Below are positions 6,284 through 59,855 of a DNA stretch of 64,000 nucleotides, one piece after another. The notes below the pieces were generated by a model. It did no database searches. It worked only from the letters and a program-made list of their open reading frames with translations, and was not told where the DNA came from. This DNA comes from an uncultured Actinomycetota bacterium. GTDB lineage: Bacteria; Actinomycetota; Actinomycetes; Propionibacteriales; Nocardioidaceae. Location: assembly GCA_963834245.1 (NCBI GenBank), contig CAWIAV010000002.1, positions 792,038-856,037 on the forward strand, given 5' to 3'. Position 1 is the stretch's first letter. Each line of letters starts with the position of its first letter. The translations under genes were made by a program, and so were the position numbers.

Positions 6284-6442
6284 CAGCACCGCGGTCAAGG
6301 GCTTCGGGCAACGGATTCGTAACGGCGTCAGGTCGTCTAGGCAAGTTTTGCCGAGCCTCCGATCGGCACGTAGTGTGATGCAGACCACTCACAACTCACA
6401 ACGGATCGTCCGGCACGTTCCTGCCGGTGAGGAGATGGAATA

Positions 6443-10260: not shown

Positions 10261-10271
10261 GGGCACCCAGC

Positions 10272-11297: not shown

Positions 11298-11339
11298 GGC
11301 AGTGATCGTAACCTTCATCGCGGTTGGCAGGATGGGTCC

Positions 11340-11978: not shown

Positions 11979-12060
11979 CCTGAGCCCGGCCCTCGGGGTG
12001 ACCTCTCGGCGTCTCGCACGTTGAACCTCGTGCAAGCACGCCTATCCGGGAGGATCCTCC

Positions 12061-13029: not shown

Positions 13030-13057
13030 CCGCAGGTCCCTCCTGGCGGGCGGCGTC

Positions 13058-13264
13058 TCAGGACCGCCCGTCGCCACCCTCGCCGAGCGCCTCGTCGAGG
13101 CGGGCGCGTGCACCCTCGAGGTGACGCTGACACACCTTGGCCAGCTCCTCGCCGCGTTCCCACAGGGCCAGCGACTCCGCGAGGCTGGTGCCACCCTGCT
13201 CCAGGGTGCGCACCACCTCGATCAGCTGCTCGCGGGCCTCTTCGTAGGTGGGTTCCTCAGCCAT
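13058..13264 (-). CDS. xseB: Exodeoxyribonuclease VII small subunit
   Basis: '[36 protein letters not shown]'; overlaps the xseA stop. Confidence 0.95.
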
Positions 13265-14516
13265 CGTCGTCCTCGTCGTCGTGGGCGGGCATCAGGTCGA
13301 TCTGGTCCACCGTGGTCGTGGTGGCTCCGATGCGGCCGTCGGCCACCCGGATGTGGATCTCGTGGCCAGGTGACAGGCCGGCCACGCTGGAGAGTGCCCG
13401 GCCATCGGAGTCGGACAGCACGGCATAGCCGCGGCGCAGCGTCGCGAGCGGTGACAGCGCCCGGACCCGCGCGATCTGGTGCTCGAGGTCGTCGGTGCCC
13501 CGGTCGAGCCGGTGGCCGAAGGTACGACGTACGCGGTCGCGATACGCCAGGATCTCGACATGCCGCTCCGTGAGCCCCGAGCGGGGATCGGCGAGCGCGG
13601 GCCTCGACCGGAGCGCGGCCAGCTGGTGCAGCTCCTTCTCGATGGCACCCCGCAGCACGCTTCGGCCTCGCTCACGCAGCTGCAGCAGCCGCTGCGCCTC
13701 CTCTGCGACGTCGGGCACCACCCGCTTGGCGGCATCGGTGGGCGTGGAGGCGCGGACGTCGCTGACGAGGTCGAGGATGGGGGAGTCCGGCTCGTGGCCG
13801 ATCGCGGAGACGACCGGCGTGGTGGCCGCGAAGACGGCCCGGACCAGCGCCTCGTCTGAGAACGGCAGCAGGTCCTCGACCGACCCGCCACCGCGGGCCA
13901 CGATGATGACGTCCACCTCGGGGTCGCGGTCGAGCGCGGCGACGGCCTCGATGACCTCCCGGGCGGCGTGGATCCCCTGCATCGCGGCGTACTTGACGTT
14001 GAAGCGGACCCCGGGCCAGCGCCGCCGAGCGTGCTCGAGAACGTCTCGCTCCGCGGCGGAGCTGCTCGCCGTGACCAGCCCGACCGTGCGCGGCAGGAAC
14101 GGCAGTGGTCGCTTGCGCTCCTCGGCGAAGAGGCCTTCGGCGGCCAGCAGCTGTCGGCGGCGTTCGAGCCGGGCCAGCAGCTCGCCCTCCCCGACCAGCC
14201 GGATCTCGCGCACGGCGAGGGAGAGCGTGCCGCGGGTGGCGTAGAACGTCGGTTTGGCGTGGCACACGATCTGGGCGCCCTCGACCAGCGGGGTGGGCAG
14301 CGAGTCGATCACCCCGCGGTTGCAGGTGACCGGGACGGAGATGTCGGCCAGCTTGTCGCGCAGGGTGAGGAAGACGGTGTTCATCCCGCCTCGTCGGCTG
14401 ATCTGGGTGACCTGGCCCTCCACCCACACGGCCCCCAGGCGGTCGACCCACTGACCGATCGCCAGGTTGATCTGGCGCACGGGCGCCGGATGCTCGGGCG
14501 AGGTCTCCATGGCCAT
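13257..14516 (-). CDS. xseA: Exodeoxyribonuclease VII large subunit
   Basis: OB-fold 'VWVEGQV', '[13 protein letters not shown]', '[13 protein letters not shown]', 'SAIGHE', 'TPTDAAK'. Confidence 0.96.
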
Positions 14517-14553
14517 GCGGTGACCCTAAGGTGCGGCCCCTACGATTGGACGC

Positions 14554-15564
14554 ATGACTGACCTGGGCACTCCGAGCGTCCTCTCGCCCGACGCCGCCGA
14601 ACGCGCTGTACGGCTGGCCGCACCGCGGGGGTACTGCGCCGGCGTCGACCGCGCGGTGATCACCGTGGAGAAGGCGTTGGACCTCTACGGCACTCCCGTC
14701 TACGTGCGCAAGCAGATCGTGCACAACAAGCACGTGGTGGCCGACCTCGAGTCCCGGGGCGCCGTCTTCGTCGAGGAGCTCGACGAGGTCCCCGAGGGGG
14801 AGACCGTGGTGTTCTCCGCCCATGGCGTGTCGCCGGTGGTGCACGAGCAGGCCGCGGCGCGCGGCCTGAAGACCATCGACGCGACCTGCCCGCTGGTGAC
14901 CAAGGTGCACCACGAGGCGCGCCGGTTCGCCTCCGACGACTACGACATCCTGCTGATCGGCCACGAGGGCCACGAGGAGGTCGAGGGCACCGCGGGCGAG
15001 GCGCCCGACCACATCCAGCTCGTGCAGAGCCCGGACGACGTGGACTCGATCGTCGTCCGGGACCCCGAGAAGGTGGCCTGGCTCTCCCAGACGACGCTCT
15101 CCGTCGACGAGACGATGGCCACCGTCGACGCGATCCGCCGCCGGTTCCCCAAGCTGCTCGACCCGCCCAGCGACGACATCTGCTACGCGACCCAGAACCG
15201 TCAGCTGGCGATCAAGGAGATCAGCCTCGGGGCGGACCTGGTCATCGTGGTGGGCTCGGCCAACTCCTCCAACTCGGTGCGGCTGGCGGAGGTCGCCCTG
15301 GAGGCCGGTGCGAAGGCCGCCTACCGCGTCGACGACGCCAGCGAGGTCGACGAGGCGTGGCTCGCCGGAGTGGACAGCGTCAGCGTCACCTCCGGGGCCT
15401 CGGTGCCCGAGGACCTGGTCGACGGTGTCCTGGCCTTCCTCACCGAGCGTGGGTACCCCGACGCGCAGGCGGTGCACACCGCCGAGGAGTCCCTGATCTT
15501 CGCGCTGCCTCCCGAGCTGCGTCGCGACATGCGTCGCGCGGCTGCGGAGCAGAGCGGCGGCTAG
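14554..15564 (+). CDS. ispH: 4-hydroxy-3-methylbut-2-enyl diphosphate reductase
   Basis: '[11 protein letters not shown]', 'IVHN', 'SAHG', '[11 protein letters not shown]', '[11 protein letters not shown]', 'SSNS'. TACGAT lies 7 nt before the ATG. Confidence 0.97.
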
Positions 15565-15567
15565 CCC

Positions 15568-16188
15568 ATGGCGCGGTACTACGACGTGCACCCGGTCGAC
15601 CCGCAACCGCGGGCGATCAGCCAGGCCGTGTCAGTGCTTCGGGAGGACGGGTTGCTCGCCTATCCCACGGACTCCGGCTACGCGCTGGGCATCCAGCTGG
15701 GGAACCGGGACGGTCTGCAGCGCATCAAACGGCTACGCGAGCTCGACGACAAGCACCACTTCACGTTGGTGTGTCGCGACTTCGCGCAGCTGGGCCAGCT
15801 GGTGCACCTGAACAACGCAGCCTTCCGAGCGGTGAAGTCGGCCACGCCCGGTGCCTACACGTTCATCCTGCCGGCCACCGGTGAGGTCCCCAAGCAGCTG
15901 ATGCACCCCAAGAAGCGGACGGTCGGGGTGCGGATCCCCGATCACGCGGTGGTGCGCGCGCTCCTGGAGGAGCTCGGCGAGCCGATCCTGTCCAGCACGC
16001 TCCTGATGCCAGGTGCGGATGCTCCGATGACCGACGGCTGGGCGGTCAAGGAGGAGCTGGATCACTGGCTGGATGCGGTGATCGACTCCGGGGAGTGCGG
16101 CTCTGAGCCCACCACCGTGGTCGACCTCTCCGACGGGCCGGCGGTGGTCGCCAGGGTCGGCGCCGGGGACGTTGCCCGGTTCGCGTAG
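15568..16188 (+). CDS. Sua5/YciO/YrdC family protein (YciO-like)
   Basis: 'AYPTDSGYALG', 'PGAYTFIL', 'KKRTVGVRIPDH', 'EPTTVVDL'. Confidence 0.92.
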   Translation: MARYYDVHPVDPQPRAISQAVSVLREDGLLAYPTDSGYALGIQLGNRDGLQRIKRLRELDDKHHFTLVCRDFAQLGQLVHLNNAAFRAVKSATPGAYTFILPATGEVPKQLMHPKKRTVGVRIPDHAVVRALLEELGEPILSSTLLMPGADAPMTDGWAVKEELDHWLDAVIDSGECGSEPTTVVDLSDGPAVVARVGAGDVARFA

Positions 16189-16559
16189 GCGCTCCGGCGC
16201 CTGGTGGCCACCCGCGCCCGCGTCGCCAGCACCGCCAGCACGAGCAGGTACGCCGTGAGCAGGCCGCCCGGCCGGTGAGCGAGACCGGACACCACGGCCT
16301 GGACGATGCCGTCGCCGGGGTCAGCGACCCAGGGCACGTGCACCACGGCGACCAACGTGACCAGGCCGAGCAGCAGCAACGGCGGCAGCACGCCGACGTG
16401 GAAGAAGTCGCGGGGACGCACGGCCAGTGCCGCACCGACGCACACGACCACGAACCCCACGTCGAACAAGACCGTGATGCGCTCGTCGATGAGGAGGTCG
16501 GTCGCGAGCACCGCGAGGCCGGCCAGGATCGCCAGTCGCGTCACGCGACTGCCTGACAT
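16062..16559 (-). CDS. DUF6542 membrane protein
   Basis: Four hydrophobic segments with 'ALAVRPRDFF..GVLPPL'; conserved position between ispH and rmuC. The 3' end overlaps the convergent yciO-like gene. Confidence 0.7.
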   Translation of the reverse strand: MSGSRVTRLAILAGLAVLATDLLIDERITVLFDVGFVVVCVGAALAVRPRDFFHVGVLPPLLLLGLVTLVAVVHVPWVADPGDGIVQAVVSGLAHRPGGLLTAYLLVLAVLATRARVATRRRSAYANRATSPAPTLATTAGPSERSTTVVGSEPHSPESITASSQ

Positions 16560-16611
16560 CCGGCCCTCTTCCCACAGGGTGGGTGCGCTCACAGGGTCAA
16601 GGTAGGCCGCC

Positions 16612-17736
16612 TCAGGCGCTGGAACGGCGCGACTCGCCGGACGACACGCCGGGGTGGGTCGGGTGGACCGGGTCGGTCGGTGCCGGGAGCTGGGGGCGTT
16701 CCTCGGCCACCGCCTCCAGCAGCTCGGCCGCGGTGAGTGGTCGGGGCGCCGAGCTCACGGGCGTGACCGGGCTCAGCCGCTCCCTGGTCACCCCGATGTC
16801 CTCGAACTGCCGGGCCGTGACGAGCACCCGGCTCTCGATGGACCCGACGGCGCTGTTGAACGCTTCGACGGCTCCCTTGAGCGAGCGGCCCACCTTGTCG
16901 AGGTGGCCACCCATGACACCGATCCGGGTGTGCAGCTCGCGGCCGAGCTCGTGGATCTCCCGGGTGCGCTCCGCCAGCGCCTCGGTCGTCCAGCCGTGCG
17001 CCACCGTGCGGAGCAGCGCGATCAGCGTGGTCGGCGTGGCGATGACCACGTCCTTGGTGGCGGCGTACGTCAGCAGGGTGGCGTCGGTCTCGAGTGCGGC
17101 CGCGAGGAAGGACTCCGCGGGCACGAACATCACCACGAACTCCGGTGCCCCAGGAAGGGAGCGCCAGTAGGCCTTGCCGGCCAGCGCGTCCACGTGCGTG
17201 CGGACCTGCCGCACGTGCCGACGGAGGTGCCCTTGCGCCTCCTCGGGGTCATCGCAGGCCAGCGCGTCGAGATGAGCGTCGAGGGGGACCTTGGCGTCCA
17301 CCACCACCGACCGGCCGCCTGCGAGCCGCACCACGAGGTCGGGACGTTGGCTGCCGTTGTCGTGGGACATGGTCACCTGCTCGGAGAAGTCACAGTGCTC
17401 GACCATGCCGGCCAGCTCGACCGTGCGGCGCAGGTGCAGCTCGCCCCACTGTCCGCGGACGTGTGGCTTGCGCAATGCGGTGGAGAGGGCTCCGGTCTCG
17501 CGGCGCAGCAGGTCGGTGCTGTGCCGCATGTCGTCGACCTGCTGGCGCAGCTGACCCTGCCACGAGGCGCGCTGCTGCTCGACGTCCATCAGCCGCTCGT
17601 GCAGCCGGTCGAGGCCGTCGCGCAGCACTGCCTGGTCATCCCCGCGGGCCGACAGGGCCCGCAGGACGTCGGGGTCACCGTCGCGTCGGGACCACAACAG
17701 CACGCTCAGGGCGCCTAGCAGTGCGCCGATCAGCAT
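16612..17736 (-). CDS. rmuC: DNA recombination protein RmuC
   Basis: N-terminal TM, coiled coil, 'RGQWGE', 'RPDLVVRL', 'VVVDAKVP', 'PEFVVMFVP', 'TPTTL.ALL'. Confidence 0.93.
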   Translation of the reverse strand: MLIGALLGALSVLLWSRRDGDPDVLRALSARGDDQAVLRDGLDRLHERLMDVEQQRASWQGQLRQQVDDMRHSTDLLRRETGALSTALRKPHVRGQWGELHLRRTVELAGMVEHCDFSEQVTMSHDNGSQRPDLVVRLAGGRSVVVDAKVPLDAHLDALACDDPEEAQGHLRRHVRQVRTHVDALAGKAYWRSLPGAPEFVVMFVPAESFLAAALETDATLLTYAATKDVVIATPTTLIALLRTVAHGWTTEALAERTREIHELGRELHTRIGVMGGHLDKVGRSLKGAVEAFNSAVGSIESRVLVTARQFEDIGVTRERLSPVTPVSSAPRPLTAAELLEAVAEERPQLPAPTDPVHPTHPGVSSGESRRSSA

Positions 17737-34774: not shown

Positions 34775-35851
34775 GTGGCACTCACCATCGGAATCGTCGG
34801 TCTCCCCAACGCGGGCAAGTCGACCCTCTTCAACGCCCTGACCAAGAACAACGTGCTCGCGGCGAACTACCCGTTCGCGACGATCGAGCCGAACGTGGGC
34901 GTGGTCGGAGTGCCGGACGAGCGCCTCGGCAAGCTCGCGGAGATCTTCGGCTCGGCCAAGGTCCTTCCCGCGACCGTCGAGTTCGTCGACATCGCCGGCA
35001 TCGTCGCCGGCGCCTCCCAGGGGGAGGGCCTCGGCAACAAGTTCCTCTCCCACATCCGGGAGTCCTCGGCGATCTGCCAGGTGACCCGGGTCTTCCGCGA
35101 CGAGGACGTCACCCACGTGGACGGCGAGGTGAACCCCGAGTCCGACATCTCCACGATCCAGACCGAGATGATCCTGGCGGACCTCCAGACCGTGGAGAAG
35201 GCGATCCCGCGGCTGGAGAAGGAGGCGCGCGGCAACAAGGCGCTGAACGCCAACCTCGACGCGGCGCGCGAGGTCAAGGAGCACCTCGAGGCCGGTACGC
35301 CGGTCATCTCCACCAAGGTCGACCGTGAGCTGGTCCGCGAGCTGTCGCTGCTGACTGCGAAGCCCTACATCTACGTCTTCAACTGCGACGCCGACGAGCT
35401 CGGCGACGAGGGCCTGAAGCAGAAGATGCGCGACATCGTCGCCCCGGCCGAGGCGATCTTCCTCGACGCGAAGTTCGAGGCCGAGCTGGTCGAGCTCGGC
35501 GACGACGACGAGGCCCGCGAGATGCTCGCCGAGATGGGCGTGCAGGAGCCCGGGCTCGACGTACTCGCCCGCGTCGGCTTCGACACCCTCGGTCTGCAGA
35601 CCTACCTGACCGCCGGGCCCAAGGAAGCGCGCGCCTGGACGATCAAGAAGGGCGCCACCGCACCCGAGGCCGCCGGTGTGATCCACACGGACTTCCAGAA
35701 GGGCTTCATCAAGGCCGAGATCGTCTCCTACGACGACCTCGTCGCCGCGGGCTCGATGGCCACCGCCAAGTCGGCCGGCAAGGTCCGCATGGAGGGCAAG
35801 GACTACGTCATGGCCGACGGTGACGTGGTGGAGTTCCGCTTCAACGTGTGA
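34775..35851 (+). CDS. ychF: Redox-regulated ATPase YchF
   Basis: 'GIVGLPNAGKSTLFNAL', 'ANYPFATIEPN', 'DIAG', 'EGLGNKFL', 'GKDY.M.DGDVVEFRFNV'. TAGACT lies 8 nt upstream. Confidence 0.97.
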   Translation: MALTIGIVGLPNAGKSTLFNALTKNNVLAANYPFATIEPNVGVVGVPDERLGKLAEIFGSAKVLPATVEFVDIAGIVAGASQGEGLGNKFLSHIRESSAICQVTRVFRDEDVTHVDGEVNPESDISTIQTEMILADLQTVEKAIPRLEKEARGNKALNANLDAAREVKEHLEAGTPVISTKVDRELVRELSLLTAKPYIYVFNCDADELGDEGLKQKMRDIVAPAEAIFLDAKFEAELVELGDDDEAREMLAEMGVQEPGLDVLARVGFDTLGLQTYLTAGPKEARAWTIKKGATAPEAAGVIHTDFQKGFIKAEIVSYDDLVAAGSMATAKSAGKVRMEGKDYVMADGDVVEFRFNV

Positions 35852-35855
35852 ATCG
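35833..35855 (+). repeat. 23-bp direct repeat, left copy (attL-like), covering the ychF 3' end
   Basis: GTTCCGCTTCAACGTGTGAATCG, identical to 37509-37531. Confidence 0.9.
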
Positions 35856-35900
35856 GCGCGTTTGCGCAGGTCAGAGGGGGTATGACGCCCGACCATCGGG

Positions 35901-36030
35901 TCGGAGTCCGTTGAGATCTCAGAACTGAAGAAGGCCGTGGTGCGGTCGCGCGCGGCCGAGCTGGAGGCGGACCCGTCGATCGGTCTGACCTGGACGAACT
36001 GGACGCACGGCTGGCTTCGCGCTCGGGCCA
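35901..36030 (+). pseudogene. Possible remnant of an addiction-module antitoxin (TIGR02574-like)
   Basis: With one base restored, translates as 'EISELKKAVVRSRAAELEADPSIGLTW-DELDARLASR', resembling that family's C-terminus. No start codon. Confidence 0.35.
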
Positions 36031-36057
36031 GACGCGTCTGACTGAGACGACATTCAA

Positions 36058-36107
36058 ATGTTTCTCATTATTGACTTTCAGAGTTGAATGACTAAAATGA
36101 GAAACAT
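36058..36107 (+). promoter_or_regulatory. TA operon promoter embedded in a 23-bp inverted repeat (operator)
   Basis: Arms 36058-36080 and 36085-36107 match at 19 of 23 positions, the outer 12 bp perfectly, with a 4-nt spacer. Contains -35 TTGACT (36071-76) and -10 TAAAAT (36093-98). Confidence 0.82.
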
Positions 36108-36568
36108 GCCAGCCCCTAGCCCGTACACGAGTGCCCGAGCAACAGGCGGACCTCGAACGCCTGGGCGCCCGGCTGCGCGAACGCCGAAAGGCCCTCGGTG
36201 TCACGGTAGTCGCCTGTGCCGAAGCTGCTGGCGTTTCGCGCGTCACCCTGCACAGGATCGAGACAGGCAACCCCTCGGTCACGATCGGCGCCTACATCAA
36301 CGTTGCCGCCGCACTCGGACTCCACCTCGTCGTCCCGATCCTCGACGCTCCAGCAGCAGAACCGGCGACGATCACGGTCGGCGACTACCCCGGCCTCCGC
36401 ACGCTGGCCTGGCAGACCGACGCCGGCACCACCATCACCGAGACGGAGGCACTCAACCTCTACGAACGCGGCTGGCGACACCTCAACCAGGAAGGCCTCA
36501 CCGATCACGAGAAGGCGTTCATCCAGCACCTCGCGGACACCTACAGCAACGGGAGGCTCCTTGTTTAG
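36106..36568 (+). CDS. XRE-family HTH protein, putative antitoxin (ATG 36106 needs one indel near 36133; otherwise GTG 36131)
   Basis: 'LGARLRERRKALG..AEAAGVSRVTLHRIETGNPSVT.GAY' HTH plus C-terminal 'DYPGLRTLAWQ..EALNLYERGWRHL'. Its stop overlaps the toxin start. Confidence 0.82.
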
Positions 36569-37283
36569 GCGGCTGCACCACCAACAGGTGGCCGAGGTGC
36601 TGTCGATCCTCGACGCACCGCTCCTGGCCGAGCACAACTGCTGGTTCGGAGGCGGGACCGCGATCGTCCTCGCCAACGGTGAGTTCCGCGAATCGGTCGA
36701 CATCGACTTCCTGGTCTCCGACCCGCAGTCCTACCGCGCGCTGCGCCAGATGGTCAGGGACCACGGGCTCGACGCTCTGGCCACACGCGAACTGGACCTG
36801 GGTCGAACACCCTCTGTTGACGGTTACGGGATCAGGACCTCGGTGCTCGTAGCAGGGGTTGCGATCAAGTTCGAGATCATCCATGAAGGCCGCATCGACC
36901 TCGACACTCCCTCCCCGGACGATGAGATCTGCGGGTTACGGATCCTGACGCGAACAGACCAGGTCGCAACCAAGCTGCTCGCCAATGACGACCGCTGGGC
37001 AGACACGTCGACGTTCAGCCGCGACCTCATCGACCTGGCCATGATGAAACCCGACACCGCCGCCCTGAAGGCCGGCGCGCGCAAGGCGGTCGATGCGTAC
37101 GGCAAGACGGTTGGCGAGAGCCTCAACAAAGCAGTCACCTACCTCCGAGATCGCCCGCAACGTCTCGACGAATACATCCGAGCACTCAAGATCGACGCGC
37201 CCCGAGCAGTTGTCTGGCAGAGCATCCGCGACTTGTCCGCAAGATCCGCGAAGATCGAAGGTCTGGGTCGGGGCTCGGACTAG
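36561..37283 (+). CDS. AbiEii/DUF1814-type nucleotidyltransferase, putative toxin
   Basis: TTG start after GGGAGG; 'FGGGTAIVL..FRESVDIDF', 'KLLANDDR', 'SRDLIDL' are AbiEii motifs. Confidence 0.85.
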   Translation: MFRRLHHQQVAEVLSILDAPLLAEHNCWFGGGTAIVLANGEFRESVDIDFLVSDPQSYRALRQMVRDHGLDALATRELDLGRTPSVDGYGIRTSVLVAGVAIKFEIIHEGRIDLDTPSPDDEICGLRILTRTDQVATKLLANDDRWADTSTFSRDLIDLAMMKPDTAALKAGARKAVDAYGKTVGESLNKAVTYLRDRPQRLDEYIRALKIDAPRAVVWQSIRDLSARSAKIEGLGRGSD

Positions 37284-37508
37284 CCTGACGGCATGTCGGT
37301 GAGTCCGACGCCGGCGACAGTGAGTCCGCGACGAATGACCTCATGGTCTCCGACCGTCCAGCGGTCCGCAAACAGTCCGCAAGAAGTCACGCGGAGCCGT
37401 TTCTGACCAACGGCTGCCAACGACTCATGGACGGCGTTCGCCCAGGTCAGAGACCCTTTTCCGGCTGTTTTCAGCGATGATCGAAGGGGGCCGAAACACC
37501 CGGTTTTC

Positions 37509-37531
37509 GTTCCGCTTCAACGTGTGAATCG
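37509..37531 (+). repeat. 23-bp direct repeat, right copy (attR-like)
   Basis: GTTCCGCTTCAACGTGTGAATCG, identical to 35833-35855. Confidence 0.9.
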
Positions 37532-37680
37532 ACCCGCTTCGCTGGCCAGAAGGCCGGTGCGTCCAGTCGGCGCGGAGCCCGCGAGGGACTCACGGGACCG
37601 GGGTCGCTCCCGTCGGCTTCGGCCAGCCGGGGAGTCCGAACGGCTCCCTCGCAGCAGCCCTCGCGATCTACGATCGCCTC

Positions 37681-40179
37681 ATGCTGCTCGACCGGAGCGC
37701 GGACCTCGCGTCGTTCGCTGCTTGGTCGGCGGACGCCTGCGACGGCAGGAGTTCTGTCGTCCTCGTGGAAGGTGAGGCTGGATCGGGTAAGACGAGTCTC
37801 GTCCGCAGTGGCACGAGCGCCTTCGAGTCCTGGTGGGGCTGGTGCGACCCCCTCGACACTCCTCGGCCCCTCGGCCCTTTGTTCGATCTGGCGCCGGTCG
37901 CAGGCTTGACGGTCGGCAAGGACCCCTTCGAGGCGTACGACGCGTTACTGGGGGTGCTGCGTGACCGGGCCACACCGGTCGCGGTGGTCCTGGAGGACCT
38001 CCACTGGGCAGACGACGCGACGCTCGCCATGCTGCAGTTCCTCGGTCGCCGGCTCGATGGGTGCCGAGCGTTGGTGGTCGCGACCTATCGAGGTGACGAG
38101 GTGGGACCCGCTCTTCGGCGGGTGCTGGGCGACCTCGCGCGACTCGGAGATCGCGTCCACCGGATCGGGGTCGGACCGCTGTCGCCGGCGGCCGTGGCCG
38201 TGCTGACGGAGGGCACGGGGCTCGACCCTGTCGAGGTCCTGGAGGTCACCAAGGGCAACGCCTTCTTCGTCACCGAGGTCGTCGCTGGCGGGGGTGGGAT
38301 CACCGAGACCGTGGCAGACGCGGTGCTCGCCCGCGTGCAGGCCCTCCCGGAAGGCACGCGCGAGCTCCTGGAGCTGGTCTCGGCGGAGCCGGGCGGGCTG
38401 GACGTGGGTTCGGTCCCGCACTCCGACCGGGCCAACGGCCTGCTGGTGGACATCGGTGAACGGATCGCCTTCCGTCACGAGCTGGCCCGGCGCGCCGTCT
38501 ACGACCATCTGCCGCTCGTTCGCCGCCGTCAGCTGCACCGACGCCTGCTCGAGAGCCTGGCCGGCTCGGTCGACCTGGCACGCATGGCTCACCACGCGGT
38601 GGGGACCGGGGATCCGGACACCATCGTGACGCACTGCCGACCGGCCGCCGAGGAGGCCGTCGTGCGCGGCGCCAACCGCCAGGCGGCCGGCTTCCTCAGC
38701 GCTCTGGTCGACCAGGAAGAGAGCTTGTCACCGCGGGACCACATCGAGGTGCGCGATCGGCTCGGTGTCGTGCTGGGTGCGCTCGACCGCCATGCCGATG
38801 CGGTCAGCCATCTGCAGAGCGCTCTGGAACAGGCCGAACGGATCGGCGACGACAGGGCGCGCGGTCGAGTCCTGTCTCACCTCGCCGCGGCACAGTGGCG
38901 CGCCGGCGACGTCGCCGCGTCCGCCCTGCTTCGCGAGCGGGCCGTGGAGGTCCTCCAACCTCTCGGGCCCACGGCGGAGCTGGCGGCCGCCCTGACCTAC
39001 TCCGCGCGCGGCCGGATGCTGGCGCGCCATCACGAGCCGGCCCTGGAGCGCGTTGCCGCGGCTGAAACCGTCGCTGCCGAGGTCGGGGACGAGTCCGCCG
39101 CCACGGCGGCAAGACTGTTGCTCGGCACGATCGAGCTGGTGACCGGAGACCCTGACCGCGGCATCGCGCACCTCACCGGCGTCCTCGCCGAGGCGCGAGC
39201 ACGAAGAGATCCGGTCCTGGAGGTGGATGCGCTGCGCATGCTGGGCAGTGGAGCCGGCGAGGCCCGGCGGTACGAGGACGCCTTCCCCTGGGCGCAGCAG
39301 CTCGTCGACAGCTCCCTCAGCCGGGACAACGACTTCGACGTCGCCTACGCGCGGGCGTGGCAGGCCCGCATCCGCTTCGAGCAGGGGCGGTGGGAGGAGG
39401 CGGCGACGCTGGCGGCTGCGGTGAGCGCTGACCACGGTGCGCCGGTCAACCGCTCCACGGTCCTGGGCGTCGTCGGCCGCCTGCGAGTGCGACGTGGCGA
39501 TCCTCGGCCCCTCGAACCGCTGGCAGAGGTGCTTCGGCTCGGGGGACTGGAGCTCCAGCACCGGTGGCCAGGGCTGTGTGGTGCCGCGGAACAGCACTGG
39601 CTCGCGGGCGACCACTGCGTCGGCGTCGAGGTCCTCCAGCAGCCATACCTGCAGGCACTCGAGACCGACAGCAGATGGGCACAGGGCGAGATCGGCTACT
39701 GGCTGTGGCGCAACGGCGGCATCGACGAGGCGCCCCCGCTGGCGGCGGAGCCGTTCGCGGCGCACATGTGCGGAGACTGGGCGGCGGCTGCGGAGGCCTG
39801 GGAGAGGATCGGGTGCCCCTACGAACGGGCGCTCGCACTGGTGGACGGCGACGCCGACGCGGTCGCCGAAGGGGTCGCCATCCTCGACCGGTTGGGCGCC
39901 CGCCCCGCCGCAGCCTGGACGAGGCGTCGACTTGCCAGCCGGGGGCTGCCGGTGCCACGTCCGGCCCGTACGCAGACGCTGGAGAACCCCTGGGGGATGA
40001 CGGAGCGCGAAGCCGAGATCCACCAACTCGTCCTCGACGGCCTGGACAACCCGACCATCGCCTCCCGGCTGTTCATCTCCCGGCGCACCGTCGAGCACCA
40101 TGTCTCCGCCGTGCTCCGCAAGCGCGGCGTCACCCGACGTGACGAGCTCCTGGGTGAGGCCGGGCCCTCACCTGGGTGA
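37681..40179 (+). CDS. Large ATP-binding LuxR-family regulator (AAA ATPase, TPR-like region, LuxR HTH)
   Basis: Walker A 'GEAGSGKT', 'LEDLHWADDAT', 'TKGNAFFV', C-terminal 'MTEREAEI..GLDNPTIASRLFISRRTVEHHVSAVLRK'. Confidence 0.92.
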   Translation: MLLDRSADLASFAAWSADACDGRSSVVLVEGEAGSGKTSLVRSGTSAFESWWGWCDPLDTPRPLGPLFDLAPVAGLTVGKDPFEAYDALLGVLRDRATPVAVVLEDLHWADDATLAMLQFLGRRLDGCRALVVATYRGDEVGPALRRVLGDLARLGDRVHRIGVGPLSPAAVAVLTEGTGLDPVEVLEVTKGNAFFVTEVVAGGGGITETVADAVLARVQALPEGTRELLELVSAEPGGLDVGSVPHSDRANGLLVDIGERIAFRHELARRAVYDHLPLVRRRQLHRRLLESLAGSVDLARMAHHAVGTGDPDTIVTHCRPAAEEAVVRGANRQAAGFLSALVDQEESLSPRDHIEVRDRLGVVLGALDRHADAVSHLQSALEQAERIGDDRARGRVLSHLAAAQWRAGDVAASALLRERAVEVLQPLGPTAELAAALTYSARGRMLARHHEPALERVAAAETVAAEVGDESAATAARLLLGTIELVTGDPDRGIAHLTGVLAEARARRDPVLEVDALRMLGSGAGEARRYEDAFPWAQQLVDSSLSRDNDFDVAYARAWQARIRFEQGRWEEAATLAAAVSADHGAPVNRSTVLGVVGRLRVRRGDPRPLEPLAEVLRLGGLELQHRWPGLCGAAEQHWLAGDHCVGVEVLQQPYLQALETDSRWAQGEIGYWLWRNGGIDEAPPLAAEPFAAHMCGDWAAAAEAWERIGCPYERALALVDGDADAVAEGVAILDRLGARPAAAWTRRRLASRGLPVPRPARTQTLENPWGMTEREAEIHQLVLDGLDNPTIASRLFISRRTVEHHVSAVLRKRGVTRRDELLGEAGPSPG

Positions 40180-44072: not shown

Positions 44073-44177
44073 GCTGCTCCGGCTGACCCGGTGGGGTCGG
44101 GACCCGGCGACGACCTTGTCGAATGTGCGCTCGGCCCGTGCTCGTGAGATCCTCGGACCACGAGCCGATCAGGCTCG

Positions 44178-44220
44178 CCGGACGATGGAGCCGTACCCGG
44201 AACGCGACAAGACGGCCATC
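44178..44220 (+). ncRNA. Guanidine-III (ykkC-III) riboswitch
   Basis: CCGGACGATGGAGCCGTACCCGGAACGCGACAAGACGGCCATC: P1 CCGG/CCGG, pseudoknot GCCGT/ACGGC, conserved GACGA and GACAAGAC; lies directly before the AGGAG RBS of an SMR gene. Confidence 0.88.
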
Positions 44221-44231
44221 AGGAGTCCGTC

Positions 44232-44546
44232 ATGGCGTGGTTGGTTCTCGTTCTCTCCGGTGTCCTCGAAGGCGTGTGGGCGGTGGCGCTCGGCAAGTCG
44301 GAAGGGTTCACCCGGCTCACGCCGTCGCTGGTCTTCACCGCCGCGCTGGCGCTCAGCATGGGCGGCCTTGCCTACGCGATGCGGACCCTGCCGGTCGGGA
44401 CCGCCTACGCCGTGTGGGTCGGGATCGGCGCGGCCCTGACGGTCGGCTTCGGCATGGTCACCGGGTCGGAGTCGGTGAGCGTCGTGAAGGTGGCGCTGAT
44501 CGTCGGCCTGATCGGCTGCGTGGTCGGCCTCAAGCTCGCCCACTGA
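44232..44546 (+). CDS. sugE: SMR family guanidinium exporter (Gdx/SugE)
   Basis: 104 aa, four TMs; 'MAWLVLVLSGVLEGVWA' with the membrane Glu, 'LPVGTAYAVWVGIG'. Confidence 0.92.
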   Translation: MAWLVLVLSGVLEGVWAVALGKSEGFTRLTPSLVFTAALALSMGGLAYAMRTLPVGTAYAVWVGIGAALTVGFGMVTGSESVSVVKVALIVGLIGCVVGLKLAH

Positions 44547-52452: not shown

Positions 52453-52608
52453 GGCTCCCATGCTCTCACCAACGGCAGCTGCTCGCGCGGGCGCTCGAGG
52501 TCTCAGCGGGCCGATCGCGCCTTGGATCCCGGGGCCACGAGAGGTCGAGCGGAGTTCTTTGTCCCGGTCTCGCGGAGTGGACATAACCGCAGGTCAGAGG
52601 GGCTTTCT

Positions 52609-52630
52609 TGTCGGTGGTCGGTGCTTGGAT
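52609..52630 (+). promoter_or_regulatory. RecA-NDp/PafBC-like DNA-damage promoter motif, leaderless
   Basis: TGTCGG-N10-TTGGAT-N7-ATG(52638). Confidence 0.55.
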
Positions 52631-52637
52631 TCGAGTC

Positions 52638-53973
52638 ATGAGCAGTAGTCGCGACGTGGACGATCACCGGCACCCGGTGGCCGAGTTCGCGTGTCGGCTG
52701 ACCGGTCGTCTGGACGGCCTGGCCCAGGTGCCGTTGCTCTCGATGACCCCGGCCCAGAAGCGGGCCGCGTTGGTCGAGCTGGCCCGCGGCGAGGCACAGC
52801 TGGCGGCGTTGCGGTTGCGGCTGCTCGCCGATGCCGAGCAGTCCGAGGCCACCGTCGAGTCCGGTGCGGCCACCGCAGCGGACTGGGTGGCCGTGGAGAC
52901 CCGCCAAGTACGCCGTGAGGCCCGCTCGGAGCTGCGTCTGGCCCAGCGCCTGGACCACCACGAGACCCTGTCCGCGGCGATGGCTTGCGGGCGGGTCAAC
53001 CTGGCCCAGTCCCGGGCGATCGTGGCTGCGCTGGACCGGCTGCCCCGCACCGGCGCCTGGGCGCTCACCACCGAGCAGCGGGCCGCGGCCGAGCAGCACC
53101 TGGTCGACCTCGCCGCCCACCACGACGCCAAGGACCTCCGCGTCCTGGGCCGCCGGGTCTTCGAGGTGATCGCCCCCGAGGTCGCCGAACAGTTCGAGGG
53201 CCGCGCCCTGGAACGCGAAGAGGCCCACGCGCTGCGCCGGACCACGCTCACCCTGTGGGAGGACGACGAAGGCACCTGCCACGGCCGGTTCCGCATCCCC
53301 ACCCTGCACGGCCAGATGCTGACCAAGATGATCCTCGCCCTGGCCTCACCCACCCGCCCCACCACCACCGGACCGGCTGCTGGCGGCACCGCGGCGGCCG
53401 TCGATGCTGTGGACCGCGAGTCCGCGATCGCCTCTGGGATCGACCCGGACCTGCCCACCCCGGTCCGGCACGGGATCGCACTCACCCAGCTCCTCGAAGC
53501 CATCCCCGCCACCGCCCTGCCCAAGACCGGCGGCTGCTCGGCCACCATCGTGGTCACCATGACCCTGACCCAGCTCCTGGCCGACCTCGAGACCGCCGGG
53601 GTCTGCACCCTGGACACCGGCGGATCGATCTCCGCCGCCGAGGCCCGGAGGCTCGCGTGCCGGGCCGGGATCATCCCGATGGTCCTCGGCGGACCCACCC
53701 AGGTCCTCGACGTCGGCCGCCGACGCCGCCTGCACACCGAAGCCATGCGCCTGGCGATGAGCATCCGCGACCGCGGCTGCACCACCCAGGACTGCCAGAC
53801 CCCACCAGGGATGTGCCACGCCCACCACGACACCCCCTGGTCCCGGGGCGGCCACACCAACACTGCACACCGGCCGACTCCTGTGCCCCCACCACCACCG
53901 CCGCGTCCACGACCCCACCTATGTGACCCGACACCACCCCGACGGCCAGATCACCTTCCACCGACGCGAGTGA
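52638..53973 (+). CDS. DUF222-HNH protein, copy 2, frameshift inside the HNH motif (~53870)
   Basis: 'ARRLACRAGIIPMVLG..LDVGRRRRL', 'RDRGCTTQDC', 'CHAHHDTPWSRGGHTN'. The motif completes as 'GRLLCPHHHRRVHD..GQITFHRRE*' in another frame. Confidence 0.82.
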
Positions 53974-54169
53974 CAGTTGAGTCCAAGGCGTGGTGTACGA
54001 CGCGCCAACCCCTGCCATGCCGGACCCGCGACTTCGAACAAGTGCTGCCGGCACCATGTCCGCCGCGATCCAGGCTGCACGATTGAGTTCTACTTCTCGG
54101 ACCGGCTGCGCAAGCTTCGCCGGCGGAACCTGTGGGTTGTGCTCAGCGCGCGTCTGCCCCAAGCGGAAC

Positions 54170-56800: not shown

Positions 56801-56878
56801 CTCACGACATGCACCTGCCCGGTCCCGGTCCCGGTCAGCATGCCGCCTTCCGCGTCCTGGCAGGTGCCTGGCGGGTCG

Positions 56879-58261
56879 TCACCGCTGGGCGCGCGGGGTG
56901 ATGTGCTGGTTCAGCCGGAACACGTCTTCGGGGTCCCACTCCGACTTCAGCGCGACCAGTCGCTCGTACGCCGCACCATAGGCCTCGCGGACCCGGTGCT
57001 CGCCCTCGTCGCCGAGGTGGTTGACGTAGGTGCCGGTTGCCCACGGTCGCATCGCCGACCACAGTCCGCGTGCCCAGGCCCGGTGCGGCTCCGGCGACTC
57101 GGTGGGGTCGACCCAGATGGCGGCCACCGTCAGCATCCACTCGGCGTCGCGGTTGACGAAGGCGGTCGCGTCGGCGGGCACGCGAGCGATCGCCCCACCC
57201 AGCTGGTGCAGCAGGATCTGGTTGTACGGCGAGGTGGCACGGAGGTGGTGCTCGGCGAGCAGCTCGAGTGCGTGATCGTCGAGCGGACCGAGGAGGTCGG
57301 ACTTCACGTAGGAGCGCCGCTCATCCGGGATCAGCGGGTCGACGGCCTGCTGGAGCTCGACGTAGCTCTGCGCCCGCATGGTGTCGACGGCCGCGGGGCC
57401 GATGCTCCGCAGCGGGGCCAGCACGGCTTCACCGACCTCGACGGGGCCGCAGTGCGACCCGGCCAGCACGCACACCGGTTGGCCCTGGGCCTCGGGTGGC
57501 ACGAACGGTGCCTCCGGGGCGGTGACCATGGCGGCCATCAACCGGACCTCGTCGGGCATCGTCGGTGCCAGGTCCACCAGGTGACGCAGCACCTCGAGGT
57601 CCCGGAAGCCCGGGTGGATCAGCTCGCCGGCGTACATCGGCCCGACGGGGTGCAGGTCGTACTCGAAGGAGGTGACGATCCCGAAGTTCGCGCCCGCGCC
57701 GCGGATCCCCCAGAAGAGCTCCGGGTTCTCCTCGTGGCTGGCCCTGACGACCTCACCCGAAGCGGTGACCAGGGTGACGGCCCGGAGGTTGTCGCAGGTC
57801 AGGCCGAACCGTCGGCTCAGGGTGCCGATGCCGCCACCGAGAGTGAGACCCGCGATCCCGGTGTCGGAGACCTCGCCGCCGGGAACCGCCAGTCCGTGCT
57901 CCTGGGTCGCGTGGTCGAGCTCGCGCCACAGCACGCCCGGTTGGGCGATCGCGGTGCGTCGCTGGGGGTCGACCGCGATGGTCTTCATCGGGGACAGGTC
58001 GATGACCAGCCCGTCGTCGCAGGTGGCGAGCCCGGCCATGCTGTGGCCGCCGCCGCGCACGGCGAGCACGAGCCCGGCCGCGCGAGCCAGGCCGACGGCG
58101 ATGCGGACGTCCTCGGTGCTCGTGCACCGCATGATCGCCGCCGGGTAGCGGTCGATCGCGCGGTTCCAGACGCGGCGGGCCTCGTCGTAGTCAGGGGAGC
58201 CGGGGAGGACCAGCTCGCCCAGGAAGTCGGCGGGAGGGTTGATGGTCGCAGTGGTAGTCAT
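56879..58261 (-). CDS. FAD-binding oxidoreductase (BBE/6-hydroxy-D-nicotine oxidase-like)
   Basis: 'VRGGGHS' (covalent-FAD His), 'GLTLGGG.G', 'LFWGIRGAGANFGIVT', 'YVNH', 'WDPEDVFRLNQ'. Confidence 0.92.
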   Translation of the reverse strand: MTTTATINPPADFLGELVLPGSPDYDEARRVWNRAIDRYPAAIMRCTSTEDVRIAVGLARAAGLVLAVRGGGHSMAGLATCDDGLVIDLSPMKTIAVDPQRRTAIAQPGVLWRELDHATQEHGLAVPGGEVSDTGIAGLTLGGGIGTLSRRFGLTCDNLRAVTLVTASGEVVRASHEENPELFWGIRGAGANFGIVTSFEYDLHPVGPMYAGELIHPGFRDLEVLRHLVDLAPTMPDEVRLMAAMVTAPEAPFVPPEAQGQPVCVLAGSHCGPVEVGEAVLAPLRSIGPAAVDTMRAQSYVELQQAVDPLIPDERRSYVKSDLLGPLDDHALELLAEHHLRATSPYNQILLHQLGGAIARVPADATAFVNRDAEWMLTVAAIWVDPTESPEPHRAWARGLWSAMRPWATGTYVNHLGDEGEHRVREAYGAAYERLVALKSEWDPEDVFRLNQHITPRAQR

Positions 58262-58296
58262 GCAGCGAAGCTACGAGCCCGCTGCGGCCGCGCGGT

Positions 58297-58314
58297 ATCC
58301 CAGAACAATGGGGT
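58297..58314. promoter_or_regulatory. Imperfect palindrome in the divergent promoter region (candidate LuxR-HTH binding site)
   Basis: ATCCCA-N6-TGGGGT between the oxidoreductase and its divergent regulator. Confidence 0.35.
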
Positions 58315-58348
58315 TCCAGACGCCGCCGCCCGGGGCTACTTTCGTCTC

Positions 58349-59757: not shown

Positions 59758-59855
59758 TCGGCCGCGGCGACTGATTCGAAGCCTGGGCCACGCGCTCGTA
59801 GACTGACCCGAGCGCCCGGACCCCCGCGGCACCCTCCCCGACGATGCAGGACCCT

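What the first reader, a model, noticed from the sequence alone, without database searches (positions are those of the whole stretch)
35833..37531. 1.7-kb integrase-less islet at the ychF 3' end, bounded by a perfect 23-bp duplication and reduced to a toxin-antitoxin pair
Seen: GTTCCGCTTCAACGTGTGAATCG occurs at 35833-55 (last ychF codons and stop) and again at 37509-31. Between the copies are an XRE-HTH gene, an AbiEii-like nucleotidyltransferase gene and no recombinase. The right end carries short tandem words (GTGAGTCCG x2, GTCCGCAA x2) that could be arm-type sites. Established: site-specific integration into a gene's 3' end regenerates the gene and leaves a duplicated core. Inference: this is either a minimal element mobilised in trans or a collapsed larger element stabilised by addiction. 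It may act as an anti-phage or island-exclusion module at an integration hotspot.
Basis: partly seen in the sequence, partly recalled or inferred. Interest (0 to 1): 0.7.

Follow-up and report, generated by a model that had tools for sequence, protein, structure and literature searches.

The report
Decayed mobile-element stump with toxin-antitoxin pair
This 1.7-kb islet is what is left of a mobilizable element that integrates into the end of the ychF gene: it keeps both attachment sites and an AbiE-type toxin-antitoxin pair, has lost its integrase and transfer genes, and is a clear but ordinary example of a known kind of remnant.

Summary
An exact 23-bp repeat (35833-55, 37509-31) brackets an XRE-type antitoxin gene and an AbiEii nucleotidyltransferase gene, with no recombinase.

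Comparison with about 180 related loci shows what it is. The last 15 bp of ychF (GTTCCGCTTCAACGT) is the attachment core of a family of integrative mobilizable elements in Nocardioidaceae and Intrasporangiaceae. These elements encode a tyrosine integrase, an excisionase-like protein and a TrwC relaxase.

The islet carries that family's two conserved arms:
- a roughly 150-nt P arm with the invariant doublet GTCCGCAA-N3-GTCCGCAAGAA;
- a partly decayed P' arm.

It also holds a frameshifted relic of a second antitoxin gene, so it is a collapsed larger element, a CIME in the published sense. Right of attR lies an older, decayed P' arm. That indicates tandem accretion and explains why the repeat is 23 bp rather than 15.

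The same AbiE pair sits downstream of ychF in every related context examined, never with an integrase. It is 89-97% identical in DNA where ychF is only 75-86%, so it moves horizontally, probably with help from related elements.

The antitoxin gene also has a 5' frameshift unique to this window.

Verdict: new member of a known kind, modest interest.

The parts
34775..35851 (+). ychF, the target gene. Its last 15 bp plus the stop region form the attachment core.
   Evidence: TIGR00092 at E = 3.9e-129 over residues 1-358. Pfam YchF-GTPase_C and MMR_HSR1.
35833..35855 (+). attL core, the left copy of the exact 23-bp repeat. The segment shared family-wide by attL and attR is 35833-35847, GTTCCGCTTCAACGT.
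   Evidence: exact copy, 0 of 100 shuffles. In other loci only the 15-bp segment is shared by the two junctions.
35856..35930 (+). P' arm, the left arm of the element. The conserved GCAGGTCAGAGGGGG block (35866-35880) is intact. The arm-type doublet has decayed to CCATCGGGTCGGAGTCCGTTGAGA (35893-35916), against the consensus CCAGTCCGCACAGAGTCCGCAAGAA.
   Evidence: Alignment A2 with 12 other ychF-proximal arms. 97% identity to L043 over 35852-35886. The same arm lies between the integrase stop and the core in L124, L127, L130, L131 and L133.
35910..36041 (+). Pseudogene relic of an Unstab_antitox (PF09720) antitoxin gene. The N-terminal ~33 codons are missing and there is a 1-nt deletion near the 3' end.
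   Evidence: blastn 77% to L155 6998-7096. 19/28 amino-acid identity to the C-terminal half of the L155 73-aa antitoxin, E = 3e-14. A weak PF09720 hit for the relic and a clear one (E = 2.4e-10) for L155.
36058..36107 (+). Promoter and operator of the TA operon. The inverted repeat has 23-nt arms (36058-80 and 36085-107) and encloses TTGACT (36071-76) and TAAAAT (36093-98). The conserved ATG at 36106 lies 7 nt after the -10 hexamer, which suggests a leaderless mRNA (inference).
   Evidence: Inverted repeat I1. Promoter scan scored 10/12, with 2 sites found against 0.2 expected. The block is nearly invariant in L018, L030, L039, L063 and L093.
36106..36568 (+). Antitoxin gene, with an XRE-HTH N-terminal domain and an AbiEi-like C-terminal domain. 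An extra G at 36132 disconnects the conserved ATG (36106) from the HTH frame. Only the GTG at 36131, which the insertion itself creates, keeps a 145-aa ORF.
   Evidence: Pfam HTH_31 at E = 8.8e-13. PADLOC AbiEi PDLC02278 at E = 7.9e-24 over residues 80-145. The frameshift shows against 8 homologous loci and against metagenome contigs (positions 36132/36133 'left out 1').
36561..37283 (+). AbiEii/DUF1814 nucleotidyltransferase toxin gene (240 aa). It starts at TTG and overlaps the antitoxin stop by 8 nt.
   Evidence: PF08843 at E = 1.1e-19. PADLOC AbiEii at E = 7.6e-69. 97% identity to P0001 over the full length. NTase motifs I-IV are all present, as defined in PMC3985639.
37284..37351 (+). Spacer between the toxin stop and the P arm.
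   Evidence: A single-copy version is present in L082, L165 and L166. The spacer is absent in L018, L039 and L084. Metagenome contigs skip 37286-37352.
37352..37508 (+). P arm, the right arm of the element. It holds the arm-type doublet GTCCGCAAACAGTCCGCAAGAA (37364-37385), a GCAGGTCAGA-type block (37434-37452) and the motifs TTTTCCGG and CGAAAC.
   Evidence: Alignment A1 with the attR-proximal arms of L002, L014, L018, L030, L038 and L039, with a long invariant block. The same arm lies next to the relaxase side of integrase-bearing elements in L093, L096, L155 and L156.
37509..37531 (+). attR core, the right copy of the exact 23-bp repeat.
37532..37593 (+). Decayed P'-type arm of an older element, i.e. 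the scar of an earlier occupant of the site. It makes this junction attP-like (P arm, core, P' arm).
   Evidence: Row 'win_attR_right' in alignment A2. blastn 74% over 82 nt to the L047 ychF end plus left arm. Analogous P'-like sequence follows attR in L165 and L166.

Best explanation
The islet is the decayed stump of an integrative mobilizable element (IME), i.e. a cis-mobilizable element (CIME).

Intact members of the family insert with a tyrosine integrase, by recombination within the 15-bp sequence GTTCCGCTTCAACGT at the end of ychF. The element carries its own copy of that sequence, so the gene is regenerated. The integrated element ends up flanked by core + P' arm on the ychF side and P arm + core on the far side.

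Intact members encode an integrase, a small HTH_17 excisionase-like protein, an HTH regulator and a TrwC relaxase. Immediately inside the P arm they carry a toxin-antitoxin module of variable type.

In this genome everything except the two attachment sites and the P-arm-proximal module has been deleted. That module is an AbiE-type pair. A fragment of another antitoxin gene survives as a scar. The stump sits in tandem with the scar of an older element, at the head of a 24-kb variable region between ychF and prfC.

Shown here: the repeat, the arms, the family and its integrase, the relic, the tandem junction, and the horizontal spread of the module.

Inferred:
- The pair persists because loss of an intact AbiE operon is counter-selected (addiction), and/or because it gives abortive-infection defence.
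- Integrase-less copies spread by being excised and transferred together with, or by the enzymes of, a co-resident related IME.
- This particular copy is now poorly mobile or immobile, because its P' arm-type sites are degraded.
For: - Repeat and gene content.
- ychF 3' end as a hotspot. 16 of 75 related ychF loci have a second core within 10 kb, and 14 carry the GCAGGTCAGA block just after the stop.
- Conserved arms. The P arm is shared with six elements of unrelated cargo (A1). The P' arm is shared with 10 or more loci (A2).
- Cognate integrase family. L043 has a PF00589 integrase and a TrwC relaxase. About 45 of 80 metagenome loci found through the integrase contain the ychF end in their flank, with the integrase gene convergent with ychF and the P' doublet between the integrase stop and the core. 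P arm + core sits next to the relaxase side in L093, L096, L155 and L156. HTH_17 and DUF3024 genes are confirmed in these elements.
- Collapse. There is a frameshifted Unstab_antitox relic at 35910-36041, a relaxase N-terminal remnant in the AbiE-bearing L039 element, and DUF3024 directly upstream of the pair in L083, L084 and L167.
- A TA slot next to the P arm. L155 has Unstab_antitox + ParE, L096 has HEPN, and L108 and L014 have PIN.
- Tandem accretion. A decayed P' arm lies right of attR. L166 has three cores in series. L018 and L030 have internal P arm + core junctions before the pair.
- Horizontal spread without an integrase. Every AbiEii cluster looked up (8 of 8) lies 0.2-7 kb downstream of ychF with no integrase within 10 kb. 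TA DNA identity to the window is 89-97% where ychF is 75-86%, including in Phycicoccus, which is in another order.
- Toxin integrity. All four NTase motifs are intact.
- The definition of a CIME and the accretion model are taken from PMC5704250.
Against: - No intact element with integrase, relaxase, the AbiE pair and the P arm all together was found among about 180 loci, so the progenitor is inferred, not observed.
- In L043 and its closest relatives the integrase lies several kb from the P' arm. The assignment of this integrase to these exact arms therefore rests on co-occurrence, not on a complete sequenced element with both ends (L108 comes closest).
- Left junctions differ between the minimal islets of the window, L165 and L166. 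This fits independent collapses, but could also reflect recombination between arms.
- In L093 the pair lies beyond a chromosomal phnA gene and has no arm of its own, so linkage to the arms is not absolute.
- The antitoxin 5' frameshift means the operon may not be fully functional here, which weakens the addiction argument for this copy.
- No excision product or empty site could be examined, because the genome's own reads were not found.
Confidence: 0.8

Rival explanations
1. This particular copy is an actively trans-mobilised minimal element. On this reading the 1.5-1.7-kb unit (core, P', AbiE pair, P, core) is a hitch-hiking element that is excised and integrated by integrases of co-resident ychF-specific IMEs and transferred by their relaxase. 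This copy would then be a recent arrival, not a local decay product.
For: - Core-to-core units of nearly the same size occur in the window (1676 bp), L166 (1672 bp), L165 of Phycicoccus (1541 bp), and internally in L018.
- The pair is far more similar between hosts than ychF is.
- It is never found with its own integrase.
- In L093 it sits in tandem with an intact IME.
- CIME-ICE co-transfer is documented in other bacteria (PMC5704250).
Against: - The window's P' arm-type doublet is degraded.
- The left junctions of the different minimal units are not homologous, so they are not copies of one transmissible unit.
- No integrase was found in the 64-kb window.
- No excised form could be tested.
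Confidence: 0.3
2. The structure is a chance or recombinational duplication of the ychF 3' end unrelated to site-specific integration. For example, the TA pair could have been inserted by illegitimate recombination, with a short duplication arising at the same time.
For: No integrase is present in the islet. The repeat is short.
Against: - Conserved 150-nt and 75-nt arms with shared arm-type doublets flank the cores here and in elements with unrelated cargo.
- The same arms flank integrase-bearing elements at the same site.
- The exact repeat is not expected by chance.
Confidence: 0.03
3. The islet is a prophage remnant rather than an IME remnant. The arms would belong to a temperate phage family that uses the same arm-binding integrase type.
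For: One IMG/VR contig (L081) carries the same GTCCGCAAATAGTCCGCAAGAAGTC doublet next to phage structural genes.
Against: - In L081 the adjoining core is the 3' end of a tRNA gene, not ychF.
- All ychF-site elements with an integrase carry a TrwC relaxase and no phage structural genes.
- An L039 relaxase remnant is linked to the AbiE pair.
Confidence: 0.05

Closest known systems
CIMEs (cis-mobilizable elements) derived from ICESt1/ICESt3-type elements at the 3' end of fda in Streptococcus thermophilus, and the accretion model for tandem ICE/IME/CIME arrays (reviewed in PMC5704250)
   Same: [quoted passage not shown] It is integrated in the 3' end of a housekeeping gene, lies in tandem with other element remnants, and has an internal chimeric att site.
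   Different: The host phylum differs (Actinomycetota). The target gene is ychF. The integrase family and arms differ, and the relaxase is TrwC-type. Mobilisation of this copy is untested, and its P' arm sites are degraded.
AbiE (AbiEi/AbiEii) type IV toxin-antitoxin / abortive infection system of Streptococcus agalactiae and Lactococcus (PMC3985639)
   Same: It is a bicistronic operon with overlapping genes. The DUF1814/AbiEii NTase toxin has motifs I-IV intact. The antitoxin is a two-domain DNA-binding protein. A 23-nt inverted repeat covers the promoter. It is located on an integrated mobile element, and PMC3985639 reports that AbiE stabilises mobile elements.
   Different: The antitoxin's N-terminal domain is an XRE-type HTH (PF13560), not the COG5340 winged HTH. 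Only the C-terminal half matches an AbiEi model. No activity has been tested. This copy has a 5' frameshift in the antitoxin gene.
MenAT nucleotidyltransferase TA systems of Mycobacterium tuberculosis (PMC7450476, PMC10435456, PMC11375011)
   Same: The toxin is an actinobacterial DUF1814-family NTase. tRNA acceptor-stem modification is therefore a plausible mode of action for this toxin.
   Different: No detectable sequence match to any solved structure at E <= 0.01. The antitoxin type differs. The target is unknown.
Pipolins integrated at ychF in Actinobacteria (PMC11551731)
   Same: ychF serves as an integration site for defence-carrying integrative elements in Actinobacteria.
   Different: Those elements use large serine recombinases and encode a piPolB polymerase. 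The family here uses a tyrosine integrase and a TrwC relaxase and has no polymerase.

Membership tests
CIME (cis-mobilizable element; definition in PMC5704250) | Flanked by attL and attR sites of an ICE/IME family | tested here: met
   Cores lie at 35833-55 and 37509-31. The P' and P arms are homologous to those flanking integrase/relaxase-bearing elements at ychF.
CIME (cis-mobilizable element; definition in PMC5704250) | [quoted passage not shown] | tested here: met
   Only two genes and a pseudogene relic lie between the cores. tblastn found no integrase or relaxase homologue in the window.
CIME (cis-mobilizable element; definition in PMC5704250) | Can be mobilised in cis or in trans by a related ICE/IME | not testable with these tools
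   The evidence is indirect only. Integrase-less copies have spread horizontally, and L093 shows tandem association with an intact IME. The P' arm doublet of this copy is degraded.
Integrative mobilizable element (IME), autonomous | Encodes its own site-specific recombinase | tested here: not met
Integrative mobilizable element (IME), autonomous | Encodes a relaxase and/or carries an oriT | tested here: not met
   tblastn with the L043 TrwC relaxase found no hit in the window. oriT was not searched for.
Tyrosine-integrase attachment site with arm-type sites (lambda-like architecture) | A short common core shared by attL and attR, with repeated arm-type sites on both arms and distant from the core | tested here: met
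   A 15-bp common core is seen across loci. The GTCCGCA doublet lies ~145 nt left of the core in the P arm and ~45 nt right of the core in P' arms, in the same orientation. Protein binding was not tested.
AbiE type IV TA / abortive infection system (PMC3985639) | DUF1814/AbiEii NTase toxin with motifs I-IV (hG[GS]x15DhD with an Arg; K-containing motif III; +DxxD) | tested here: met
   PF08843 and PADLOC AbiEii. In 240-aa numbering the motifs are FGG-x15-DID at residues 29-49 with R43, KLLANDDR at 138-145 and RDLID at 154-158 (whose own numbering is one lower).
AbiE type IV TA / abortive infection system (PMC3985639) | Upstream antitoxin of the COG5340/AbiEi family with an N-terminal winged HTH | tested here: not met
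   The N-terminal domain is an XRE-type HTH (PF13560/PF01381). Its closest solved relatives are HipB, HigA and C.AhdI-type proteins. Only residues 80-145 match a PADLOC AbiEi model. The pair is therefore an AbiE-like variant.
AbiE type IV TA / abortive infection system (PMC3985639) | Bicistronic operon, autoregulated through inverted repeats over the promoter | tested here: inconclusive
   The genes overlap by 8 nt. A 23-nt inverted repeat covers the -35 and -10 hexamers. Binding and repression were not tested. The window copy has a 5' frameshift.
AbiE type IV TA / abortive infection system (PMC3985639) | Toxicity neutralised by the antitoxin; phage resistance | not testable with these tools
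   This needs expression and phage-challenge assays.

The most novel reading that the evidence does not exclude
The AbiE islet may not be a dead stump. It could be a successful minimal hitch-hiker: a 1.5-1.7-kb integrase-less unit that spreads between actinobacterial orders by borrowing ychF-specific integrases and relaxases. Once installed, it would regenerate an attachment site next to ychF and so act as a landing pad that nucleates defence islands. The toxin-antitoxin slot beside the P arm would then be the part of these elements that selection keeps, whichever TA type occupies it.
Probability: 0.25. Interest if true: 0.55.

Novelty: new member of a known kind. Interest (0 to 1): 0.35.

Why it matters
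The finding defines an integration hotspot and its element family in soil Actinomycetota: ychF-specific tyrosine-integrase/TrwC elements with recognisable arms. I did not find this family described in the literature searched.

It gives a clean natural example of an addiction or defence module outliving the rest of a mobile element. The same AbiE pair is left next to ychF in several genera, while different defence cargo accumulates beside it, including type I restriction-modification, GmrSD, PIN and RelA/SpoT-like genes.

Practically, the core and arm motifs allow these islands to be annotated, and they predict where new defence genes will be found. Conceptually it adds nothing beyond the established models of CIMEs, accretion and TA stabilisation.

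Tried and rejected
- Reads of the source genome. The best public runs hold only about a third of the 31-mers, all from metagenomes. Neither spanning of the repeat by single reads nor excision could be tested.
- Apparent 'joints' that skip 35879/35886 to 37364 in metagenome contigs. I rejected these as evidence of excision. They come from other elements whose intact P' doublet aligns better to the window's P-arm doublet than to its decayed P' arm.
- A third core or a second P arm further right in the window. None was found with up to 2 mismatches in 14 nt or by blastn-short. The right end of the older element is therefore lost or unrecognisable. A minus-strand near-match at 13996-14009 is probably chance.
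- An intact progenitor carrying both integrase and the AbiE pair. It was not found in 80 genome loci, 80 integrase-anchored metagenome loci or 8 AbiEii cluster look-ups.
- A phage origin. One viral-contig hit (L081) shares the arm doublet but sits at a tRNA gene.
- Solved structures for the toxin: none at E <= 0.01.
- Rfam: no RNA family in the islet.
- The idea that the sequence right of attR is native ychF-downstream DNA. I rejected this because unoccupied relatives (L005, L006, L008, L012) show unrelated sequence there.
Full report
**Observation.** The 23-bp sequence GTTCCGCTTCAACGTGTGAATCG is present exactly twice in the window, at 35833-35855 and 37509-37531. No further copy appears even at 3 mismatches, and none of 100 shuffles gave a match. 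The left copy spans the last codons and the stop of ychF (34775-35851; TIGR00092, E = 3.9e-129).

Two overlapping genes lie between the copies:
- An XRE-HTH protein. Its C-terminal half matches a PADLOC AbiEi model (PF13560 at 8.8e-13; PDLC02278 at 7.9e-24).
- An AbiEii/DUF1814 nucleotidyltransferase (PF08843 at 1.1e-19; PDLC02298 at 7.6e-69). This gene starts at TTG 36561, encodes 240 aa and overlaps the antitoxin stop by 8 nt. All four NTase motifs defined for AbiEii (PMC3985639) are intact.

A near-consensus promoter, TTGACT-16-TAAAAT at 36071-36098, lies inside a 23-nt-arm inverted repeat at 36058-36107. No recombinase is present. GC content dips to 0.58-0.65 across the islet, against about 0.68-0.72 in the flanks.

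**The ychF end is an integration hotspot.** I fetched 80 ychF loci from one genome per species. The best match is a Marmoricola MAG at 92%. The source genome itself is not in the collection, but the organism is clearly a member of the Nocardioidaceae.

Of 75 loci with usable downstream sequence:
- 16 have a second copy of the ychF 3' end within 10 kb;
- 14 carry a conserved GCAGGTCAGA block just after the stop;
- 5 have a homologue of one particular tyrosine integrase within 10 kb.

In these loci the two junctions usually share only GTTCCGCTTCAACGT. The ychF-side copy continues with element sequence (GTGAATCG...) and the distal copy with local chromosomal sequence. This is the pattern expected from recombination between an attP that carries the gene's end and a chromosomal attB.

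**The islet carries the two arms of an element family.**
- P arm. The 150 nt to the left of the window's right repeat aligns with the equivalent stretch in L002, L014, L018, L030, L038 and L039, whose cargo is unrelated. The alignment has a long invariant block, GCGGTCCGCAAA[T/C]AGTCCGCAAGAAGTC, then CGCGTTTCCGCAGGTCAGA, then GTTTTCCGG (A1).
- P' arm. The sequence to the right of the left repeat aligns with the ychF-proximal sequence of at least ten loci. The consensus is GTGAATCG[G/A]CGC...GCAGGTCAGAGGGGG...CCAGTCCGCACAGAGTCCGCAAGAA (A2).

Both arms therefore contain the same GTCCGCA doublet and the same GCAGGTCAGA block in direct orientation. This is the architecture expected for arm-type binding sites of a tyrosine integrase.

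In the window the P-arm doublet (37364-37385) is perfect. The P' doublet has decayed to CCATCGGGTCGGAGTCCGTTGAGA (35893-35916).

It results from a 21-nt tandem duplication seen only here. L082, L165 and L166 have one copy, and L018, L039 and L084 lack the spacer.

**The cognate enzymes.** In L043 (Nocardioides terrae), a P' arm 97% identical to the window's over its first 35 nt is followed within 10 kb by three genes: a tyrosine integrase (PF00589), an HTH regulator and a TrwC relaxase.

Using that integrase to fetch 80 metagenome loci, I found the ychF end in the flank of about 45 of them. The integrase gene is convergent with ychF. In the 56-65%-identity branch the P' doublet sits exactly between the integrase stop and the core (L124, L127, L130, L131, L133). 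In L093, L096, L155 and L156 a P arm plus core lies on the relaxase side.

These elements also encode a 71-76-aa HTH_17 protein upstream of the integrase, which is excisionase-like, and a DUF3024 protein between the relaxase and the P arm. L108 shows a near-complete 19-kb element from P arm to ychF. The window contains no homologue of the integrase or the relaxase.

**Evidence of collapse.**
- Window 35910-36041 is a truncated, frameshifted copy of a PF09720 (Unstab_antitox) antitoxin gene. It shows 77% DNA identity to L155 and 19/28 amino-acid identity to the C-terminal half of the L155 73-aa protein, E = 3e-14. In L155 that gene and a ParE-like toxin gene occupy the position next to the P arm.
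- Other family members have HEPN (L096) or PIN (L108, L014) genes in that position. The P-arm-proximal slot is therefore regularly a toxin-antitoxin slot.
- AbiE-bearing relatives retain other pieces of the parent. L039 has a relaxase N-terminal remnant. L083, L084 and L167 have DUF3024 just upstream of the pair.
- In seven of eight loci examined, the toxin stop is followed by a complete, truncated or internally deleted P arm.

**Tandem accretion.** The sequence right of the window's attR core (37532-37593) is itself a decayed P' arm (A2; 74% over 82 nt to L047). The right junction is thus P arm, core, old P' arm, as expected when one element inserts beside another.

This also explains why the exact repeat is 23 bp. 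Both copies are followed by element-type sequence, GTGAATCG. L165 and L166 show the same feature, and L166 has three cores in series. L018 and L030 have internal P arm + core junctions just upstream of the AbiE pair.

In the closest relative with long flanks (L006), prfC lies about 1 kb after ychF. In the window it lies 24 kb away. That 24 kb holds mostly regulatory and metabolic accessory genes and no recognisable second right end.

**Spread of the pair.** The toxin has more than 120 clusters at 85% identity or higher. All eight clusters I looked up lie 0.2-7 kb downstream of ychF, and none has an integrase within 10 kb. Various defence-type genes can sit between ychF and the pair:
- type I restriction-modification with GmrSD (L083);
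- PIN (L082);
- a RelA/SpoT-like gene (L084);
- a DUF4186/AAA_18 block (L168-L173).

Minimal core-to-core units like the window's (1676 bp) occur in L166 (1672 bp), in Phycicoccus duodecadis L165 (1541 bp) and internally in L018.

DNA identity of the pair to the window is 89-97%, while ychF in the same genomes is 75-86%. Vertical inheritance is therefore excluded.

The left junctions of the minimal units are not homologous to each other. This fits repeated independent collapse onto the same surviving module, or exchange of arms.

Because the pair travels without an integrase of its own, help from co-resident elements is the most economical route, as in published CIME-ICE accretion and co-transfer. 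L093 shows it directly beside an intact element. This step is inference.

**State of this copy.** In 8 homologous loci the antitoxin reads in frame from a conserved ATG that lies 7 nt after the -10 hexamer, which suggests a leaderless mRNA. The window has one extra G at 36132 that breaks this frame. The insertion itself creates the GTG at 36131, from which the HTH and C-terminal domains can still be read. Metagenome contigs lack the extra base.

This could be a sequencing error. If it is real, it could be a mutation that lowers or reroutes antitoxin translation. The toxin remains intact. Together with the degraded P' doublet, this suggests a copy in slow decay.

[quoted passage not shown] It derives from a ychF-specific family of elements with a tyrosine integrase and a TrwC relaxase.

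Its cargo is an AbiE-like system whose antitoxin has an XRE rather than a COG5340 N-terminal domain. It therefore fails one defining feature of canonical AbiE while matching the toxin features.

ychF has been reported as an integration site for pipolins that use serine recombinases in Actinobacteria (PMC11551731), and an intergenic site upstream of ychF is reported for a pneumococcal satellite prophage. I found no description of the family characterised here.

The finding is real and well explained, and it is a new member of a known kind. Interest is modest.

Noticed in passing
window 36106-36135: The antitoxin gene has a +1 G insertion at 36132 relative to 8 homologous loci and to metagenome contigs. 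The conserved, probably leaderless ATG at 36106 is out of frame with the HTH domain. The insertion itself creates the GTG at 36131 that restores an ORF. This is either a sequencing error or a real regulatory or decay mutation.
   Followed up: partly
window 37299-37340: A 21-nt tandem duplication (GTGAGTCCGACGCCGGCGACA / GTGAGTCCGCGACGAATGACC) lies in the spacer between the toxin stop and the P arm. Relatives have one copy or none.
   Followed up: yes
L155 6685-7214; L096 2887-3342; L108 164-571; L014 12794-13222: In intact or larger elements of the family, the position just inside the P arm is occupied by a toxin-antitoxin or toxin-like gene of varying type: Unstab_antitox + ParE, HEPN, PIN and PIN respectively. 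This looks like a conserved 'TA slot' next to attR.
   Followed up: partly
window 52587-52603: There is an exact 16-nt copy of the arm block CCGCAGGTCAGAGGGG (E = 0.005 in blastn-short). It lies just upstream of a 492-aa ORF (52608-54086) that has no Pfam hit. It could be a further scar of a ychF-site element inside the 24-kb variable region, or an unrelated use of the motif.
   Followed up: no
window 35852-59843: About 24 kb separates ychF from prfC (59844-61511, RF3_C confirmed). In the relative L006 the two genes are about 1 kb apart. The inserted region encodes two large LuxR-type regulators (37681-40179 and 56840-59440), an ECF sigma/DUF6596 protein, oxidoreductases and hydrolases, and has no recognisable mobility gene.
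   Followed up: partly
L081 (IMG/VR contig) 700-1040, minus strand: The same arm doublet (AGTCCGCAAATAGTCCGCAAGAAGTC, plus a third GTCCGCAA) lies next to the 3' end of a tRNA gene and directly after a phage tape-measure gene. Integrases with this arm specificity apparently also serve elements that target tRNA genes.
   Followed up: partly
L166 (CP041091.1) 9258-17100: This locus has three cores in series. The order is ychF, then a 1672-bp AbiE islet with an intact P' doublet, then a 6.1-kb element ending in an Unstab_antitox gene next to its P arm, then another P'-like scar. It is a textbook accretion array and a good reference locus.
   Followed up: partly
window 44157-44546: A Guanidine-III riboswitch (RF01763, 51 bits) lies immediately upstream of a small multidrug-resistance family gene (44232-44546). 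This is the usual guanidine-exporter arrangement.
   Followed up: no
window 6384-6442 and 8864-8951: There is an msiK RNA motif (RF01747, 55.5 bits) at 6384-6442. ARAGORN reports an odd 88-nt 'tRNA-???' with a two-base anticodon on the minus strand at 8864-8951, and Rfam does not support it at gathering score.
   Followed up: no
L093 5221-5580 (minus) and L096 2321-2782 (minus): In some hosts the native gene just beyond the ychF attachment site is phnA/yjdM (PF03831, PF08274). In L093 the AbiE pair lies beyond phnA and has no arm of its own. This is an exception to the otherwise tight linkage between the pair and the P arm.
   Followed up: partly
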